Below, piece by piece: positions 52,172 through 57,577 of a DNA stretch of 64,000 bases; within the stretch, counting starts at the first letter, position 1; each line of letters starts with the position of its first letter. A program made the translations under genes and the position numbers. The notes below the pieces were generated by a model. That model made no database searches, was not told where the DNA came from, and saw nothing but the letters and a program-made list of their open reading frames with translations. Origin of the DNA: Oscillospiraceae bacterium (GTDB taxonomy: Bacteria; Bacillota; Clostridia; Oscillospirales; SIG627); the NCBI GenBank assembly GCA_015063605.1, contig SVTV01000008.1, positions 5,038-69,037 on the forward strand, in the 5' to 3' direction.

Positions 52172-52336
52172 TTATTTTTGTGATTCTTTTCCGCTTTGCC
52201 TTTTCTTCATCCTCCGCCAGCTTACAAAGCCGTAAATGTCATTTACCAAAAAAGCGGCAAAGCATACTGTGATTGCCGTCACCGACAGCGTCCACAGGAT
52301 AATGTCAAGAGTAGAAAAATACTGTTTGATTTTCAT
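52172..52336 (-). CDS. 54-aa single-TM ORF (not in the supplied track), possibly a transporter C-terminal remnant
   Basis: My own translation is MKIKQYFSTLDIILWTLSVTAITVCFAAFLVNDIYGFVSWRRMKKRQSGKESQK. The tail NDIYGFVSWRR resembles PnuC-type C-termini from memory only. I found no convincing RBS. Confidence 0.25.
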   Translation of the reverse strand: MKIKQYFSTLDIILWTLSVTAITVCFAAFLVNDIYGFVSWRRMKKRQSGKESQK

Positions 52337-52558: not shown

Positions 52559-52700
52559 GTGTACTTTTTGACAGTTAATTTCCTTGTCTAATTATAACAC
52601 TAAAATATATAAAATGCAAGGCTTTTTTAGAAAAAAGTTAACAGAATATGAATTTACTTGTTATCTATTCCCTTGAAATGGCTTTTGTCAAAAAGTACAC
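52559..52700. repeat. 15-bp perfect inverted repeat pair flanking 112 bp, upstream of the SPFH/TIR operon
   Basis: GTGTACTTTTTGACA (52559-52573) and its exact reverse complement TGTCAAAAAGTACAC (52686-52700). Confidence 0.8.
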
Positions 52701-52739
52701 TTATTGAAAATAGTCATACCTGTAAGGAGAATATGTATC

Positions 52740-54149
52740 ATGTCGAAAATTGCCGATATAATCAAATACGAGGGCGATAACAGCACCTTTATATGGAAAC
52801 ATCCTTGTGAGGATTTCAACACATTGACACAGCTTATCGTTCATGAAAGTCAGGAAGCTGTATTCTTTCTCAATGGAGAAGCCCTTGATCTTTTCGGACC
52901 GGGAAGGCATACTCTCGAAACTCAAAACATACCAAAACTTGGAAAACTTTTCAATAAAATTATAGGAGATGATACGCCTTTTCATTGCGAAGTTTATTTT
53001 ATTAATAAAACCGTGCAAATGGCTATTAAATGGGGCACAGATTCAAAAGTGCGTTTCGTAGAACCTATTTACGGTATACCTTTGGAAATAGGCGCATGCG
53101 GTGAGATGAATTTAGAGGTTTCGGATTCACGTAAGTTATTATTGAAGCTTGTGGGTACAATGAACGGTATTGCATGGGACGATTATGGAGCAGGTTTTAC
53201 AAAATCCCTTCAAAATTCTTTTCGTCCTCTTATTTCTACTGCTGTAAAATCAAATCTTCCGAGTGCCATAAAATCCAATAACATAGATGTTATTGAAATT
53301 GATGAGAAACTAGAGTTGCTTTCGGAAACAATGCGAAGAAGCATTGTAAATGGCTTTGAGGAATACGGTCTTACAATACCTCAATTCTACATTACCGGTA
53401 TTGCCCTTCCCGAGAACGATCCTAATTTCAAAAAAATGAAGGAGTTACATGCCGTATCATTCCAGACGAGAATGATACAAGCGGAAGCTTTTGTTAAATC
53501 CGCACAAGCCGATGCCGATGCGGATGTTACGGCAGCAAGACGAAAGGTTGAGATGGAACGCCAGCTTACTGAAACAGAAGTGAAAAAACGTGAAGCCGAA
53601 CGTGAGTTGATCAAAGCGCAAACGGAAGCGCAAGCCGTAAAGATGGCAGGTCTTGCCGAAGCTGAAGTAATGCGGGCAAAGGGCTACGATCAGAAAGACG
53701 TTATTACAGCCGAGGTTCAAAAGGCATATGCGGAAGGTATTGGCAACATGACTATCAGCGGAAGCGGCGGCGGAGTTGCCGGTGATATGATAGGATTGAG
53801 TGTGGGAATGGCTGCCGCAGGCGTAGTTGCTCCCAAGCTCGGTGAAATGTTTGCCGGCTCAACCGGTGCAACACCGAATACATCTTCCGAAGCGCCCGCG
53901 GCGGAAGCCAAATGCTCAAAATGCGGTGCGGTATTGCCGAAAAATGCAAAATTCTGTCTTGAGTGCGGTGAAAAGGTCGCTCCCAAAATACCGGAAGGTA
54001 TGGTTATCTGCCCCGAATGCGGTAAAACAGTATCAAAGGGTAAATTCTGTCCCGAGTGCGGACACAAGTTTATAACAGCTTGCCCGAAATGCGGAAAAGA
54101 ACTTATTCCGGGTGCAAAATTCTGCCTTGAATGCGGCGAAAAGCTTTGA
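52740..54149 (+). CDS. SPFH-domain protein (YdjI/COG4260-like) with three C-terminal zinc ribbons
   Basis: The N-terminus MSKIADIIKYEGDNSTFIWKHP...LIVHESQEAVFFLNGE is typical of the SPFH Band_7_1 type. It has an Ala/Glu-rich coiled coil. Three CxxC...CxxC ribbons follow (CSKCG..CLECG, CPECG..CPECG, CPKCG..CLECG). The RBS AAGGAGA lies 9 nt upstream of ATG 52740. Confidence 0.8.
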   Translation: MSKIADIIKYEGDNSTFIWKHPCEDFNTLTQLIVHESQEAVFFLNGEALDLFGPGRHTLETQNIPKLGKLFNKIIGDDTPFHCEVYFINKTVQMAIKWGTDSKVRFVEPIYGIPLEIGACGEMNLEVSDSRKLLLKLVGTMNGIAWDDYGAGFTKSLQNSFRPLISTAVKSNLPSAIKSNNIDVIEIDEKLELLSETMRRSIVNGFEEYGLTIPQFYITGIALPENDPNFKKMKELHAVSFQTRMIQAEAFVKSAQADADADVTAARRKVEMERQLTETEVKKREAERELIKAQTEAQAVKMAGLAEAEVMRAKGYDQKDVITAEVQKAYAEGIGNMTISGSGGGVAGDMIGLSVGMAAAGVVAPKLGEMFAGSTGATPNTSSEAPAAEAKCSKCGAVLPKNAKFCLECGEKVAPKIPEGMVICPECGKTVSKGKFCPECGHKFITACPKCGKELIPGAKFCLECGEKL

Positions 54150-54165
54150 TCGGAGGTTGTGAAAA

Positions 54166-54864
54166 ATGACAAAGGTATTTAAAAACTATTTAATAATTTG
54201 GGTTGTTTTATTGATAATATTCAATGTTGTTTCCTTTGTGTCGGTCGGTTGGACGGGACAGGAAAAATACACACCGTCATTTTGGATAGGTTATGCATTT
54301 ATTACACTTACATTTATCGGTCAGATAGTATGTGCATATTTTGCGTTGAAAAACGTAGATATTAAGAAAACATTTTATAACATTCCCCTTTTTGAAACAA
54401 GTTGCAAGGGGGTCATTCTTACCTTTGTTGTCGGCGGTCTTTGTATGCTTATATCGCCTCTTCCGTATTGGATCGGAATAATAGGTTGCTCAATCATCCT
54501 GCTTTTCAATATAATCTCAGTTGTTAAAGCATTCGCTACTGTTGATATCGTAAGCGGGTTGGATTCGAAATTAAGAACGCAAACTTTTTTCACAAAATCA
54601 TTAACAATTGATGCAGATACACTTATGGCGAGTGCAAAATCCGACTCTGTCAAGACAGAATGCAGAAAAGTATATGAGGCTATTCGATATTCAGATCCCA
54701 TGAGCAATGGTGCTCTTGCATCGGTTGAAACCCAAATAACGCTGAAATTTGCCGAGCTTTCCGAAGCTGTTAAAGCGGATAATATAGAAGCGGTAACAAC
54801 ACTCGCAAACGAGGTTTGTATATTGGTCGCGGACAGAAATAAGAAATGTAAAATGTTGAAGTGA
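54166..54864 (+). CDS. 4-TM membrane protein with C-terminal helical cytoplasmic domain, unknown family
   Basis: Four hydrophobic helices fall in aa 8-125, followed by a soluble tail (...VYEAIRYSDPMSNGALASVETQI...). The RBS GGAGG lies 9 nt upstream, and the gene starts 16 nt after the SPFH stop. Confidence 0.6.
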   Translation: MTKVFKNYLIIWVVLLIIFNVVSFVSVGWTGQEKYTPSFWIGYAFITLTFIGQIVCAYFALKNVDIKKTFYNIPLFETSCKGVILTFVVGGLCMLISPLPYWIGIIGCSIILLFNIISVVKAFATVDIVSGLDSKLRTQTFFTKSLTIDADTLMASAKSDSVKTECRKVYEAIRYSDPMSNGALASVETQITLKFAELSEAVKADNIEAVTTLANEVCILVADRNKKCKMLK

Positions 54865-54874
54865 GATTTTTGTT

Positions 54875-57373
54875 ATGTCAATCCTTTTTAAATGTAAAAT
54901 GTGCAACGGTAACCTTGAAATAGCAGAAGGTATCACCGTTACGGAATGTGATTATTGCGGTACAAAGCAAACAGTACCGAAAGCTATTGATGAAAATTTG
55001 CAAAATCTTTTCAATAGAGCCAATACTCTGCGTATCAAGAGCGAATTTGACAAAGCGGAAGAGCTTTATGAAAAGATAGTACAAGCAGATACAACGCAAT
55101 CGGAAGCGTATTGGGGGCTTATCCTCTGCAAATACGGTATAGAATACGTGGATGATCCCGCAACATTCAAAAAGATCCCCACATGCCATAGGGCTTCATA
55201 TGAATCAATAATTGCCGATGATGATTACAAATCGGCACTTGAAAACGCCGATTTAAGTCAGCGTGCCGTTTATGAGGAACAAGCAAAGGAGATCGACAGA
55301 ATACAAAAGGAAATCCTTGCTCTTGCACAAAAAGAAGAAACTTACGATGTATTTATCTGCTACAAGGAGACGGATTCCGACGGTCACAGAACGCAGGACA
55401 GCGTAATTGCAAACGATATTTATTATCAGCTTACAAATGAAGGATTCAAAGTTTTCTATGCCGCAATAACTCTTGAAGGAAAGTTAGGTTCAGCTTATGA
55501 ACCTATCATCTTTGCTGCGCTCAATTCCGCAAAGGTAATGCTTTCCATTGGTACAAAGCCAGAATATTTCAACGCTGTTTGGGTCAAAAACGAATGGTCA
55601 AGATATTTGAAGATAATCAAGAATGACCGTTCAAAGCTTCTTATTCCGTGCTACCGCGATATGGATGCATATGAGCTTCCCGAAGAGTTTGCACATCTCC
55701 AAGCGCAGGATATGGCGAAGATAGGTTTTGTCAATGATATTATTCGCGGTATCAAAAAGGTAATTAAATCCGATGAACCGAAAGCAACAGTAATTAAGGA
55801 AACGGTTGTTTCCGAAAGCAATACCAACACCGCACCCCTTTTGAAGCGCGCCTTCATGTTCCTTGAAGACGGAGAGTTTGATAAGGCAGATGATTTCTGC
55901 GAGCAGGTCCTCAACCAAGACCCGGAATGTGCCGAGGCATATTTGGGTAAATTGATGGCAGAGCTGAATGTAAAAGCAAGAGAATCTCTTAAAAACTGCA
56001 GTGAGCCTTTTGACAGTAAAAACAATTATTCAAAGGCTATGCGCTTCGGAAATGAAGCCTTGAAAAAAGAGCTTGAAGCGTGCATTGAGCATATCAAAGC
56101 AAGAAACGAAAATAAGCGAATAGAAGGAATATACAACGCCGCAGTCAAAGCAATGAATTCCGCAAAAAGTATGTCAGATTATAGAAAAGCAATATCGTTA
56201 TTTTCTGAGATAGATTATAAGGATTCAAAGGACTTGAGAGAGAAATGTATTTCGGAGATGCAAGAATTTTCAATTAAAAAGAAAGAATTGTCAAAAATTA
56301 TTGAAAAAATCCAGATTAAAAATTCTCAAATAAGTATTTCTGCCGGAACGGATTTTTCAGTGGGGTTGTTATCCAATGGGAGAGTTGTCACGAACTTTGA
56401 TACAGGGCTGTATTCTCGCGAGCGCGACTTTTCGAAGTGGTCGCAAATAATTGCTATTTCCACGTATTATCATACTGTGGGATTGAGATTGGATGGAATG
56501 GTTGTTGCTCATGGTTTGAACTGCTACGGTGAATGTTACGTTATGGGATGGACAGATATTGTTTCTGTTTCTGCGGGCGAAAGACATACAGTTGGATTGA
56601 AATCAGATGGAACTGTTATTGCAACAAAATATCTTGATGGCAATGGTTATGGCTACGACGGTCAATGTGATGTTTCAGAGTGGTCGGATATTATTGCTGT
56701 TTCTGCAGGGAGTCATCACACGGTAGGTTTGATTTATAACGGAAGAGTAATAGCTGTTGGTGGGAATAATTTTAGACAATGTAATGTTTTGAGATGGTCG
56801 GATATTATGGCTGTATCTGCTGGTAGCTATCACACCGTAGGATTAAAAACCGATGGAACGGTTGTTGCTGTTGGTAGAAACGAAAACGGTCAATGTAATG
56901 TTAACGGATGGTCGGATATTATTGCTGTATCTGCAGGAGGAAATCATACCGTAGGATTGAAAGCCGATGGAACGGTTGTTGCCGTTGGAGGGAACGAATG
57001 CGAGCAATGCGAAGTGAGCGAGTGGGCTAATATTGTTGCTGTATCTGCAGGAGGAGGTCATACCGTAGGGTTGAAATCTGATGGTACGGTTATTGCTGTT
57101 GGTAGAAACGAAAGGAGGCAATGCGAAGTGAGCGAGTGGGCTAATATTGCGCTTCCGATTAAAGCAGAAACAAGAGCTGAATATATATCCATGAGATATG
57201 AAATCATGAAACGGAGCCTGCAAAAGCAACAAAGAATGCAAGAGCAGCAAAGAATGCAAGAGCAGCAAAGAATGCAGTATAGAAACGCAGGCGTGTGTCA
57301 GTATTGTGGCGGTAGGTTTAAAGGCATGTTTTCTAAAATTTGTGTAAAATGCGGCAAAAAGAAAGATTATTAA
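54875..57373 (+). CDS. multidomain protein: N-terminal zinc ribbon, TPR-like helices, TIR-like domain, TPR-like linker, seven RCC1-like beta-propeller blades, Q-rich repeat, C-terminal zinc ribbon
   Basis: The N-terminal ribbon is CKMC..CDYC (aa 7-28). The TIR-like core is YDVFICYKETD...AVWVKNEWSRY (aa ~156-295; nt ~55340-55759). Seven repeats of (W)SDI(I)AVSAG..HTVGLK.DGTV.AVG span aa ~487-758. QQRMQE occurs 3 times. The final ribbon is CQYC..CVKC. Confidence 0.75.
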   Translation: MSILFKCKMCNGNLEIAEGITVTECDYCGTKQTVPKAIDENLQNLFNRANTLRIKSEFDKAEELYEKIVQADTTQSEAYWGLILCKYGIEYVDDPATFKKIPTCHRASYESIIADDDYKSALENADLSQRAVYEEQAKEIDRIQKEILALAQKEETYDVFICYKETDSDGHRTQDSVIANDIYYQLTNEGFKVFYAAITLEGKLGSAYEPIIFAALNSAKVMLSIGTKPEYFNAVWVKNEWSRYLKIIKNDRSKLLIPCYRDMDAYELPEEFAHLQAQDMAKIGFVNDIIRGIKKVIKSDEPKATVIKETVVSESNTNTAPLLKRAFMFLEDGEFDKADDFCEQVLNQDPECAEAYLGKLMAELNVKARESLKNCSEPFDSKNNYSKAMRFGNEALKKELEACIEHIKARNENKRIEGIYNAAVKAMNSAKSMSDYRKAISLFSEIDYKDSKDLREKCISEMQEFSIKKKELSKIIEKIQIKNSQISISAGTDFSVGLLSNGRVVTNFDTGLYSRERDFSKWSQIIAISTYYHTVGLRLDGMVVAHGLNCYGECYVMGWTDIVSVSAGERHTVGLKSDGTVIATKYLDGNGYGYDGQCDVSEWSDIIAVSAGSHHTVGLIYNGRVIAVGGNNFRQCNVLRWSDIMAVSAGSYHTVGLKTDGTVVAVGRNENGQCNVNGWSDIIAVSAGGNHTVGLKADGTVVAVGGNECEQCEVSEWANIVAVSAGGGHTVGLKSDGTVIAVGRNERRQCEVSEWANIALPIKAETRAEYISMRYEIMKRSLQKQQRMQEQQRMQEQQRMQYRNAGVCQYCGGRFKGMFSKICVKCGKKKDY

Positions 57374-57396: not shown

Positions 57397-57447
57397 AAAA
57401 GACTTGTACCAGATAACTCAACTGAAAAGTACAAGTCTTTTCTTTTA
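57397..57447 (+). terminator. rho-independent terminator after the TIR/RCC1 gene
   Basis: AAAAGACTTGTAC...GTACAAGTCTTTT stem followed by a TCTTTT run. Confidence 0.85.
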
Positions 57448-57577
57448 TTCAAATATTATAAAACCTTTTTTACATATTCATTTCAATATATCGGACAAGT
57501 CATCCAAATCAACTGTAGGCAGTTTAATGGAATCGCTTTCAATGAACATAAGCATATAAACAGGATTTGCTGCGATT

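What the first reader, a model, noticed from the sequence alone, without database searches (positions are those of the whole stretch)
52740..57373. AT-rich three-gene operon (SPFH-triple-zinc-ribbon, 4-TM protein, zinc-ribbon/TIR/TPR/RCC1-propeller protein): candidate uncharacterised defence or conflict system
Seen in sequence: three tightly spaced co-oriented genes (gaps of 16 and 10 nt) are bounded by a long AT-rich upstream region and a strong terminator (57397-57447). They sit between housekeeping sugar-metabolism genes and glnN. By eye the block is more AT-rich than its flanks, but I have not computed this. Gene 1 is a YdjI/COG4260-like SPFH protein ending in three CxxC...CxxC ribbons. 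Gene 2 is a 4-TM protein. Gene 3 carries a TIR-like domain (YDVFICYKETD...VWVKNEWSRY) and a seven-bladed RCC1-like propeller. Established knowledge: bacterial TIR domains are NAD+-degrading or signal-generating effectors in Thoeris, CBASS, Pycsar and short pAgo systems. Beta-propeller and TPR arrays commonly act as sensor modules in NLR-like defence proteins. In B. subtilis the SPFH protein YdjI is encoded with zinc-ribbon membrane proteins in the pspA-ydjGHI envelope-stress operon. Inference: this is a membrane-microdomain-associated sensor (RCC1/TPR) coupled to a TIR effector. No ThsA, cyclase, Argonaute or other partner of a known TIR system is present, so it matches no named system I know.
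Basis: partly seen in the sequence, partly recalled or inferred. Interest (0 to 1): 0.8.

Follow-up and report, generated by a model that had tools for sequence, protein, structure and literature searches.

The report
SPFH-anchored TIR receptor operon, candidate defence
Three co-transcribed genes (a membrane-scaffold SPFH protein, its four-helix membrane partner, and a TIR "immune-type" enzyme fused to a seven-bladed propeller) form a gene set that recurs patchily across gut Clostridia, matches no named defence system, and most likely works as an untested anti-phage or conflict module.

Summary
Three co-oriented genes lie at 52740-57373, with gaps of 16 and 10 nt, a 715-nt AT-rich leader and a real terminator.

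- g1 is a YdjI/SamI-type SPFH protein (Band_7_1) with three C-terminal zinc ribbons.
- g2 has four TM helices plus a cytoplasmic helical bundle, and no known family.
- g3 is Zn-ribbon, TPR, TIR_2, TPR, a 7-blade RCC1 propeller and a final Zn-ribbon.

The claimed AT-richness is only mild (40.9% GC against 43.3% for the genome).

The genes are truly linked. In 40 loci from other species of the order, an SPFH gene sits directly upstream of g2 in 39. One to three ZnR-TPR-TIR genes lie beside it in 23. Across 401 genomes the TIR module and g2 co-occur in 28 (about 4 expected by chance).

The TIR fold matches NADase TIRs (SARM1, AbTir, RUN1). Its catalytic-position Glu (E240) is invariant. C-terminal domains vary between loci (RCC1, C-lectin-like DUF6273, LRR).

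No PADLOC model matches. No PspA is found in the genome. I found no paper linking SPFH and TIR.

Best reading: a mobile conflict or anti-phage module in which an SPFH/4-TM membrane platform carries Zn-ribbon-tagged TIR receptors. Function and mechanism are inferred, not shown.

The parts
52568..52595 (+). Candidate sigma-70-type promoter (TTGACA, 16 nt, AATTAT), about 145 nt upstream of g1
   Evidence: Consensus scan, 10 of 12 matches. This is a consensus match only, not shown to be functional.
52724..52729 (+). Ribosome-binding site AAGGAG, 10 nt before the g1 ATG
   Evidence: Read directly from the sequence.
52740..54149 (+). g1: cytosolic SamI/YdjI-type SPFH protein. It has a Band_7_1 domain, a coiled coil, a Gly-rich hydrophobic segment and three C-terminal CxxC...CxxC zinc ribbons.
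   Evidence: Pfam PF13421 at E 2e-35; DZR, Zn_Ribbon_1 and Zn_ribbon_3 all above cut-off. The only hydrophobic stretch is a Gly-rich one at 358-376 of P0001. Conserved with 33 relatives.
54166..54864 (+). g2: 232-aa membrane partner. It has four TM helices followed by a cytoplasmic helical bundle (residues about 140-232). No known family.
   Evidence: No Pfam, NCBIfam or PADLOC hit. AF2 model with the C-terminal domain at pLDDT above 90. At least 2085 clusters at 50% identity. Directly downstream of an SPFH gene in 39 of 40 loci.
54875..57373 (+). g3: 832-aa cytoplasmic protein with Zn-ribbon, TPR, TIR, TPR, a 7-blade RCC1 propeller, a Q-rich coil and a final Zn-ribbon
   Evidence: Pfam hits. 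No TM segment. AF2 model of residues 1-480 at pLDDT 89.
54893..54958 (+). N-terminal zinc ribbon of g3 (C7, C10, C25, C28). It is the feature shared by all third-component proteins of related loci.
   Evidence: The four Cys are invariant in 46 homologues. TIR-less partner proteins in other loci start with the same CxxCGG...CxxCG ribbon.
55349..55768 (+). TIR domain of g3 (about aa 159-298). The catalytic-position Glu E240 is the codon at 55592-55594, in the motif WVKNEW.
   Evidence: TIR_2 at 37.7 bits. Foldseek matches to SARM1, BtTir, AbTir, RUN1 and RPV1 TIRs at probability 1.0 and TMt 0.55-0.71. E240 is invariant. It aligns with the Glu of L6/L7 'WCLMEL' and BtpA 'WPAREL'.
56333..57229 (+). 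Seven-bladed RCC1-like beta-propeller of g3 (about aa 487-785). It is the variable C-terminal module of the family.
   Evidence: RCC1_2 at E 1e-45 and WD40_RLD. Seven HTVGL repeats read in the translation. In relatives this position holds DUF6273, LRR_5, LRR_8 or TPR instead.
57296..57352 (+). C-terminal zinc ribbon of g3 (C808, C811, C823, C826)
   Evidence: Read directly from the translation.
57397..57452 (+). Intrinsic terminator: a 13-bp stem followed by a T-run
   Evidence: RNA fold at -15.6 kcal/mol, z = -3.6, and 0 of 200 shuffles fold as well.
52172..52336 (-). 54-aa ORF resembling only the last 34 positions of PnuC (NMN transporter). Probably a gene remnant in the leader region, and probably not part of the system.
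   Evidence: PF04973 at 20.9 bits, below the cut-off of 27.3, covering profile positions 142-175 of 175.

Best explanation
This is a horizontally mobile, three-component conflict module, most likely anti-phage.

- g1 is a SamI/YdjI-type SPFH protein with no membrane anchor of its own.
- g2 is its dedicated four-helix membrane partner.
- Together they are proposed to build an oligomeric platform on the inner face of the membrane.
- g3 is a cytoplasmic receptor-type TIR protein, proposed to dock on that platform through its Zn-ribbon/TPR head.
- Its variable C-terminal binding domain (here a seven-bladed RCC1 propeller; elsewhere C-lectin-like DUF6273 or LRR) is proposed to recognise an invader-derived cue.
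- The TIR domains would then cluster and cleave NAD+, either depleting it or making a signal. That would stop growth of the infected cell.

Shown here: the domain anatomy, the operon structure, the tight SPFH-g2 pairing, the genome-wide co-occurrence with the TIR module, the NADase-type TIR fold with an invariant catalytic-position Glu, the patchy distribution, and the cassette variability within one species.

Inferred: physical assembly, the sensing role of the C-terminal domain, NADase activity, and the anti-phage role.
For: Operon anatomy is confirmed.

Linkage:
- An SPFH gene lies directly upstream of g2 in 39 of 40 loci from other species.
- A ZnR-TPR-TIR gene lies within five same-strand genes in 23 of 40.
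- Among 401 genomes of the order, g2 is found in 45 and the TIR module in 35. Both are found in 28, against about 3.9 expected by chance. In three of the seven exceptions the TIR gene still sits beside a g1-like SPFH gene.
- The same trio turns up in unrelated metagenome contigs in different gene orders, and on all three IMG/VR contigs that carry the TIR module.

Accessory character:
- g2 is present in 29 of 177 genera. It was not found in the one other species of the genus that was searched.
- In one other species the chromosomal site is identical but carries different numbers and kinds of TIR cassettes between samples.
- TIR paralogues share 5' ends up to 94% identical in DNA.

Conflict-type company:
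- HEPN_RiboL-PSP, a HEPN-like gene or DUF4365 is inserted between g2 and the TIR gene in some loci.
- Integrase, TnpV or resolvase genes, Fic/VbhA, and sporadic ThsB-like, DRT-type RT and CapH/CapP hits occur next door.

TIR competence:
- HMM score is over the cut-off.
- The fold matches NADase TIRs.
- E240, W236, N239 and W241 are invariant in 46 sequences.
- E240 aligns with the Glu of L6/L7 and BtpA.

Physical-tethering logic:
- g2 occurs fused to RCC1, to TPR+DUF6273, to Trypsin_2 and to Pkinase+Zn-ribbon in other organisms.
- Every alternative third gene starts with the same Zn ribbon.
- In B. subtilis the homologous SPFH protein SamI is recruited to the membrane by a Zn-finger membrane protein and a second membrane protein (PMC13713150, PMC8581546).

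Established knowledge: TIR NADases need oligomerisation to become active, and SPFH proteins form large rings or cages (HflK/C 24-mer, cited in PMC10936438).
Against: - There are no experimental data of any kind.
- No PADLOC model matches, so the defence role rests on context alone.
- About 40% of SPFH-g2 loci have no TIR gene. They carry Zn-ribbon membrane proteins that look more like a SamG-type housekeeping arrangement.
- In this window the flanks are plain housekeeping genes with no neighbouring defence genes. Composition is only mildly deviant.
- Many related loci also sit among housekeeping genes. I ran no background control for the neighbour tallies.
- g2 was not found in 50,697 phage records. 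The TIR module is rare in IMG/VR, which says nothing either way about defence.
- An RCC1 propeller has no precedent that I know of as a phage sensor.
Confidence: 0.5

Rival explanations
1. Thoeris-like signalling. The TIR proteins are sensors that make a small NAD-derived signal. The SPFH + 4-TM pair is the effector: it binds the signal and damages the membrane. One effector pair would serve several TIR sensors.
For: One SPFH-g2 pair sits with one to three ZnR-TPR-TIR genes per locus. This mirrors one thsA with several thsB genes (established knowledge). g2 is a membrane protein with a conserved soluble domain that could bind a ligand. The best, though weak, NCBIfam lead is a Thoeris-III TIR.
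Against: g1 and g2 contain no recognisable nucleotide-binding domain such as SLOG, Macro, SAVED or CARF. The Zn ribbon shared by TIR-bearing and TIR-less third genes, and the direct fusions of g2 to sensor-type and enzyme domains, point to physical docking rather than a diffusible signal. SPFH-g2 pairs also exist without any TIR gene.
Confidence: 0.17
2. This is a membrane-homeostasis or stress-signalling module of the SamGHI (YdjGHI) kind, not an immune system. The SPFH scaffold organises Zn-ribbon client proteins at the membrane. The TIR domain acts as a regulatory NAD-consuming or adaptor module in normal physiology.
For: g1 belongs to the same Pfam family as B. subtilis YdjI/SamI and shares its traits: a C-terminal Zn finger, no TM segment and a low-complexity linker (PMC13713150). 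TIR-less versions have Zn-ribbon membrane proteins reminiscent of SamG. This window's locus lies among housekeeping genes.
Against: No PspA is found in the genome and no TPM-domain SamH equivalent is present. The genome already has a separate, widely conserved Band_7_1 gene next to two Band_7 genes. The g1/g2 type is patchy, in 45 of 401 genomes. TIR cassettes vary within a species and come with HEPN or nuclease inserts and recombinases.
Confidence: 0.2
3. g3 is a Tcp-like TIR protein aimed at an animal host (interference with Toll-like receptor signalling), or a secreted toxin against other bacteria. The neighbouring genes would serve its export.
For: The organism occurs in animal faeces metagenomes. 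Bacterial TIR proteins such as BtpA are structural matches.
Against: g3 has no signal peptide, TM segment or known toxin-trafficking domain, and it has zinc ribbons at both ends, which suits a cytoplasmic protein. No secretion-system genes or immunity-gene pattern are present in the loci.
Confidence: 0.03

Closest known systems
Thoeris (ThsA effector plus one or more ThsB TIR sensors)
   Same: TIR proteins with a catalytic Glu sit in an accessory operon. Several TIR genes can accompany one constant partner. Distribution is patchy and island-like.
   Different: There is no ThsA (SIR2/SLOG or Macro-TM). No ThsB model matches g3, and ThcB4 scores 21 bits against a cut-off of 220. The TIR proteins here are large, with Zn-ribbon/TPR heads and explicit C-terminal binding domains. 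The partner is an SPFH + 4-TM pair.
B. subtilis PspA-SamGHI (YdjGHI) membrane-stress operon
   Same: g1 is a Band_7_1 SPFH protein with a C-terminal Zn finger and no membrane anchor. It is encoded with a membrane protein and with a Zn-ribbon protein (PMC13713150, PMC8581546).
   Different: There is no PspA. There is no TPM-domain SamH: g2 is an unrelated 4-TM protein without a Pfam family. The Zn-ribbon client is a soluble TIR-propeller protein. The distribution is accessory rather than core.
Receptor-type TIR proteins of immunity (plant TNLs, animal TLR/SARM1, bacterial TIR-NLR/Avs-like sensors, SpbK)
   Same: A TIR domain is joined to repeat or ligand-binding domains (LRR, propeller, TPR, lectin-like). 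The TIR fold and the Glu position match NADase TIRs.
   Different: No STAND/NB-ARC/NACHT NTPase is present to drive oligomerisation. Oligomerisation is instead proposed to come from an SPFH ring, which is untested.
HflK/C-FtsH and other SPFH cages
   Same: An SPFH domain plus coiled coil is expected to form a large membrane-attached ring that organises client proteins.
   Different: The client is a TIR protein, not a protease. g1 lacks its own TM helix and ends in three zinc ribbons. Assembly has not been examined here.

Membership tests
TIR domain, NADase-type (Pfam TIR_2, PF13676) | Profile match above the curated cut-off | tested here: met
   37.7 bits against a cut-off of 28, residues 159-281. 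The genome scan gave 41.4 bits.
TIR domain, NADase-type (Pfam TIR_2, PF13676) | Flavodoxin-like TIR fold | tested here: met
   The AF2 model (pLDDT 89) matches SARM1, BtTir, AbTir, RUN1, RPV1 and L7 TIR structures at probability 1.0 and TMt 0.55-0.71.
TIR domain, NADase-type (Pfam TIR_2, PF13676) | Catalytic glutamate at the start of helix alphaC (W-x-x-x-E motif) | tested here: met
   E240 in WVKNEW is invariant in 46 homologues. It aligns with the Glu of flax L6/L7 'WCLMEL' and Brucella BtpA 'WPAREL' (these alignments have weak E-values of 0.04-0.2). That those residues are catalytic is taken from prior knowledge.
TIR domain, NADase-type (Pfam TIR_2, PF13676) | NAD+ cleavage activity | not testable with these tools
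   This needs an enzyme assay.
Thoeris | ThsA-type effector (SIR2/SLOG or Macro-TM) encoded beside the TIR gene | tested here: not met
   No PADLOC, Pfam or NCBIfam hit of that kind in g1, g2 or the flanks.
Thoeris | ThsB-family TIR protein | tested here: not met
   No PADLOC ThsB model matches g3 at E <= 0.01. NCBIfam ThcB4 scores 21.4 bits against a cut-off of 220.
PspA-SamGHI (YdjGHI) operon | Band_7_1 SPFH protein with a C-terminal Zn finger and no TM anchor (SamI) | tested here: met
   PF13421 at E 2e-35 plus three Zn ribbons. The B. subtilis control genome rings for the same family. The SamI description is in PMC13713150.
PspA-SamGHI (YdjGHI) operon | PspA (ESCRT-III family) encoded in the operon | tested here: not met
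   No PF04012 match anywhere in the 96%-complete genome. None appeared among the tallied neighbours of 39 related loci, where only the top 25 families are shown.
PspA-SamGHI (YdjGHI) operon | SamH-type membrane protein with an extracellular TPM domain | tested here: not met
   g2 has no Pfam hit at E <= 0.01. Its soluble domain is a C-terminal helical bundle.
PspA-SamGHI (YdjGHI) operon | SamG-type Zn-finger membrane protein | tested here: inconclusive
   g3 has an N-terminal Zn ribbon but no TM segment. TIR-less relatives of the locus do carry proteins with a Zn ribbon plus TM segments. No direct comparison with SamG was possible.
STAND/NLR-type TIR sensors (TIR-NLR, Avs, bNACHT) | Central NB-ARC/NACHT/AAA NTPase domain | tested here: not met
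   No NTPase family among the Pfam hits of g3. The region between the TIR domain and the propeller is modelled as TPR-like helices.
RCC1-like seven-bladed propeller | Repeated RCC1 motifs in seven blades | tested here: met
   RCC1_2 at E 1e-45 in five scored stretches, plus WD40_RLD. Seven HTVGL repeats are read in the translation. The propeller was not modelled.
Any named defence system in PADLOC-DB v2.0.0 | Match of any component to a system model | tested here: not met
   Zero families for g1, g2 and g3 at E <= 0.01.

The most novel reading that the evidence does not exclude
Bacteria of the gut Clostridia run a Toll-like receptor logic without an NLR-type NTPase. An SPFH ring, anchored by a dedicated 4-TM protein, acts as a membrane 'immune platform'. 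It carries a swappable repertoire of TIR receptors tagged with a Zn ribbon. Their C-terminal LRR, RCC1-propeller or C-type-lectin-like domains recognise different invaders, and the scaffold supplies the oligomerisation that switches on the TIR NADase. The repertoire turns over by recombination between the conserved 5' halves of tandem TIR genes.
Probability: 0.25. Interest if true: 0.85.

Novelty: new variant of a known kind. Interest (0 to 1): 0.68.

Why it matters
TIR-based immunity is known, but always with a STAND NTPase, a ThsA-type effector, a cyclase or an Argonaute partner. Here the constant partner is an SPFH scaffold with its own membrane anchor. SPFH proteins are a class whose bacterial functions are still poorly understood.

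If the model holds, it would do three things:
- give SPFH/flotillin-like proteins a concrete role as an assembly platform for immune effectors;
- define a widespread defence system in Oscillospirales-type Clostridia of animal guts (g2 family in 45 of 401 species sampled, at least 2085 clusters at 50% identity);
- provide natural TIR receptors with LRR, propeller and lectin-like sensor domains for studying how recognition is coupled to NADase activation.

It would also assign a function to a large protein family (g2) that has no annotation.

Tried and rejected
- **Complex prediction.** g1 + g2 + g3(1-155) gave no verdict, score 0.00. This is neither support nor evidence against binding.
- **Fold search of the g2 model.** It returned only generic helical bundles (best Z 9.6, below the level that is meaningful for helical proteins). 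MLKL and Rx-CC-like rows at Z about 8 were not trusted. The ESM Atlas lists only 'hypothetical protein' clusters.
- **Island test against the other species of the genus searched (G001).** The two flanks lie on different contigs there and local gene order differs, so no clean empty site could be shown.
- **Public reads.** There are only low-depth metagenome contigs from animal faeces. No contig bridges an empty site and no RNA holder is listed, so nothing can be said about expression or presence/absence alleles.
- **DGR idea.** This came from DUF6273, a DGR-target fold, and an RT gene near L032. No template/variable repeat pair and no inverted repeats were found in L032 or L035. The only repeats are the conserved 5' halves of TIR paralogues.
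- **Phage and viral collections.** g2 was not found in the 50,697 phage records. The scan of viral contigs with the g2 alignment failed for lack of a conserved block. The N-terminal-module alignment (Zn-ribbon/TPR/TIR) found only 3 IMG/VR contigs.
- **Rfam.** Nothing in the leader or the operon.
- **PnuC-disruption idea.** Only a 3' remnant is present. No 5' half lies beyond the operon, and no intact pnuC is found in G000 or G001.
- **Other TIR_2 genes of the genome.** The five others are not paralogues of g3. The second Band_7_1 gene belongs to another subfamily.
- **PDB profile search with the whole N-terminal alignment.** It was swamped by designed TPR proteins, so it was repeated with the TIR segment alone.

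Full report
**1. What is in the window**

Three co-oriented ORFs occupy 52740-57373 on the + strand. The gaps are 16 and 10 nt (translations).

The ORF list starts g1 at a TTG (52704).

Upstream lies a 715-nt non-coding stretch of 33% GC. It contains a promoter-like site at 52568-52595.

Downstream, a 13-bp hairpin with a T-run at 57397-57452 folds at -15.6 kcal/mol, z = -3.6.

The flanks are ordinary genes:
- Upstream: YqfD, a GFO/IDH/MocA oxidoreductase and a xylose-isomerase-like TIM-barrel protein.
- Downstream: type III glutamine synthetase, RadC, NrdG and NrdD.

The block is only mildly AT-rich. It is 40.9% GC against a genome mean of 43.3% (sd 2.4), the 13th percentile. GC3 is 0.35-0.38 against 0.40-0.55 in the neighbours. 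The compositional argument for foreign origin is therefore weak.

**2. The three proteins**

*g1.* It is a Band_7_1 SPFH protein (E 2e-35), followed by a coiled coil, a Gly-rich hydrophobic segment, a low-complexity linker and three zinc ribbons. This is the family and layout of B. subtilis YdjI/SamI, which has no anchor of its own and a C-terminal Zn finger (PMC13713150).

*g2.* It matches nothing in Pfam, NCBIfam or PADLOC.
- It has four hydrophobic helices and a confidently modelled C-terminal helical bundle (residues about 140-232, pLDDT above 90).
- The fold search and the ESM Atlas add nothing.
- Its family is large: 1732 clusters at 90% identity and 2085 at 50%, none of them with a functional name.

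*g3.* It reads as follows:
- a Zn ribbon (C7/C10/C25/C28);
- TPR;
- a conserved beta-hairpin region;
- TIR_2 (37.7 bits, cut-off 28);
- TPR-like helices;
- seven RCC1 blades;
- a Q-rich coil;
- a second Zn ribbon.

It has no TM segment or signal peptide, so it is cytoplasmic.

**3. Is the TIR domain real and competent?**

An AF2 model of residues 1-480, built on 46 homologues, has pLDDT 89. Its TIR part matches SARM1, BtTir, AbTir, RUN1, RPV1 and L7 TIR structures at probability 1.0 and TMt 0.55-0.71.

In the alignment, E240 in the motif WVKNEW is invariant, as are W236, N239, W241 and R243.

A profile of the TIR segment aligns this Glu with the Glu of flax L6/L7 'WCLMEL' and Brucella BtpA 'WPAREL'. 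From prior knowledge, these are the catalytic glutamates of NAD-cleaving TIRs. The enzyme activity itself is untested.

**4. Are the three genes a unit?**

Yes.
- Neighbourhoods of g3 homologues at 46-61% identity show an SPFH-Zn-ribbon gene and a gene of about 230 aa beside one or more TIR genes. The gene orders differ between contigs.
- Neighbourhoods of g2 homologues show the same.
- Among 401 species-representative genomes of the order, g2 is found in 45 (29 of 177 genera).
- I fetched 40 of those loci and scored ORFs against pieces of g1, g2 and g3. An SPFH gene lies directly upstream of g2 in 39 of 40. A ZnR-TPR-TIR gene lies within five same-strand genes in 23 of 40, or 24 counting one cut by a contig end.
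- At genome level the TIR module (residues 1-300, E <= 1e-15) is found in 35 of 401 genomes, and 28 of these also have g2. About 3.9 would be expected if the two were independent.
- In three of the seven exceptions the TIR gene sits next to a g1-like SPFH gene.
- These genomes are related, so no P-value is given. The hits are spread over many genera.
- In the window's own genome the trio is unique. The second Band_7_1 gene belongs to the widespread lower-scoring subfamily and sits beside two Band_7 genes. The five other TIR_2 genes are unrelated to g3.

**5. What varies**

The constant core is SPFH + g2. The third component is variable but always begins with the same CxxCGG...CxxCG ribbon.
- In TIR-bearing loci there are one to three ZnR-TPR-TIR genes within five same-strand genes.
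- Their N-terminal 300-470 residues are conserved.
- Their C-termini differ: DUF6273 in 18 of the 49 C-terminal regions scanned (45 from TIR proteins, 4 from extended g2 proteins), RCC1 in 7, BspA-type LRR in 3, LRR_8 in 1, and others without a family.
- DUF6273 is described as a C-type-lectin-like, DGR-targeted receptor-binding domain in gut phages (PMC10743442; bioRxiv 10.1101/2024.10.15.618418).

In TIR-less loci the third gene is a Zn-ribbon protein with TM segments, TPR, DUF6591 or an L12-C domain.

g2 itself occurs fused to other modules:
- RCC1 repeats;
- TPR+DUF6273;
- a trypsin-like protease;
- a Ser/Thr kinase plus Zn ribbon.

This argues that these modules work physically tethered to g2.

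Between g2 and the TIR gene some loci carry HEPN_RiboL-PSP, a HEPN-like gene, DUF4365, or an unannotated family of 229-270 aa.

A tyrosine recombinase of about 280 aa sits directly upstream of the SPFH gene in six loci.

In one other species, identical chromosomal flanks enclose different cassette sets in different samples. Tandem TIR genes there share 5' ends up to 94% identical in DNA, which is a substrate for recombination.

**6. Defence or housekeeping?**

For a conflict role:
- the distribution is patchy;
- cassettes turn over within a species;
- recombinase, TnpV and resolvase genes lie nearby;
- HEPN or nuclease genes are inserted in some operons;
- neighbours include Fic/VbhA and sporadic ThsB-like, DRT-type RT, CapH/CapP and REase hits;
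- the trio is present on three IMG/VR contigs;
- the architecture, a TIR domain joined to swappable binding domains, is that of immune receptors.

Against:
- no PADLOC model matches;
- many loci, including this one, sit among housekeeping genes;
- the neighbour tallies have no background control;
- about 40% of SPFH-g2 loci lack a TIR gene and look like SamG-type arrangements.

That condition is not met: no PspA is found in this genome and no TPM-type SamH is present.

Literature searches for SPFH with TIR, for SPFH with anti-phage, for Band 7 with TIR and defence, and for COG4260 found no description of such a system.

**7. Mechanism**

I commit to the following, at about 0.5.
- g1 oligomerises as SPFH proteins do and is held at the membrane by g2.
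- g3 docks through its Zn-ribbon/TPR head.
- The RCC1 propeller binds a trigger.
- Clustering on the scaffold activates the TIR NADase.
- NAD+ loss, or a TIR product, halts the infected cell.

Only the anatomy, the linkage and the conservation are shown. Assembly, sensing, enzymology and phenotype are inferred.

The main rivals are:
- a Thoeris-like version in which SPFH/g2 is the signal-activated membrane effector (0.17);
- a non-immune SamGHI-like membrane-homeostasis module (0.2).

The single complex-prediction job gave no verdict, so it is not used.

**8. Verdict**

The finding is real and well delimited. It is a member of a large, unnamed, recurrent gene set in gut Clostridia.

I file it as a new variant of a known kind: TIR-based conflict systems, with an SPFH/4-TM platform as the new partner. 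It is a good candidate for experimental test. Its function remains unproven.

Noticed in passing
window 52172-52336 (-): A 54-aa ORF with one hydrophobic helix matches only the last 34 positions of the PnuC/NMN-transporter profile (20.9 bits, below the cut-off). It looks like the 3' remnant of an NAD-salvage transporter gene, lying in the leader of a putative NADase operon. No 5' half lies beyond the operon. No intact pnuC was found in this genome or in the other species of the genus searched.
   Followed up: partly
L032:6542-7390, L035:6543-7391, and L081, L100, L101, L108 (gene directly upstream of the SPFH gene): A short tyrosine recombinase (about 280 aa, Phage_integrase) recurs immediately upstream of the SPFH gene in six related loci. 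The window has none. It could be an island integrase or a cassette-shuffling enzyme. No inverted repeats were found in L032 or L035.
   Followed up: partly
L032:13306-13617, L033:13084-13395, L035:14364-14675: Small ORFs (called as 71-103 aa) between tandem TIR genes are stand-alone copies of the g2 C-terminal helical domain (residues 157-232, E about 1e-23).
   Followed up: partly
L032-L046 and L077-L116 (C-termini of TIR genes): The commonest C-terminal domain of SPFH-linked TIR proteins is DUF6273. In gut phages this is a C-type-lectin-like receptor-binding domain diversified by DGRs. An RT gene lies about 1 kb from the cassettes in L032, but no template/variable repeat pair was detected there.
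   Followed up: partly
P0248, P0262, P0284, P0370; L105:5963-7603 (-), L108:9453-11099 (+): The g2 module occurs fused to RCC1 repeats, to a trypsin-like peptidase, to a Ser/Thr kinase plus Zn ribbon, and to TPR+DUF6273 in other organisms. This suggests a general membrane-tethering module for sensor and effector domains.
   Followed up: partly
L035:9710-10324, L045 (203 aa after g2), L077:9037-9495 (-), L081:10184-10696: The slot between g2 and the first TIR gene sometimes holds HEPN_RiboL-PSP, a weak HEPN pEK499_p136-like gene, or DUF4365. Otherwise it holds an unannotated family of 229-270 aa. The window has no gene in this slot.
   Followed up: partly
G179:C6:101571-104530 (L079) against window 52740-57373: The first 300 residues of g3 are 90% identical to those of a species from another family of the order. 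g2 is only 61% identical and g1 about 78%. This uneven similarity suggests recent transfer or gene conversion of the TIR head.
   Followed up: no
G000:C17:24102-24776 (L026:7968-11966): The genome has a second Band_7_1/Zn-ribbon gene of the widespread lower-scoring subfamily. It is followed by a CBM9-like gene and two Band_7 (HflK/C-like) genes. This is probably the housekeeping SPFH set.
   Followed up: partly
G000: C45:17137, C16:14843, C52:10534, C32:130166, C44:33534: Five further TIR_2-domain genes lie elsewhere in this 2.67-Mb genome, for example a 722-aa TIR-Sel1-TPR protein. None is related to the g3 N-terminal module and none lies next to an SPFH gene.
   Followed up: partly
L009:10274-12889: In one metagenome contig the trio plus two extra TIR genes lies directly beside phage portal and capsid genes. 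The system may sit at a prophage border there.
   Followed up: no
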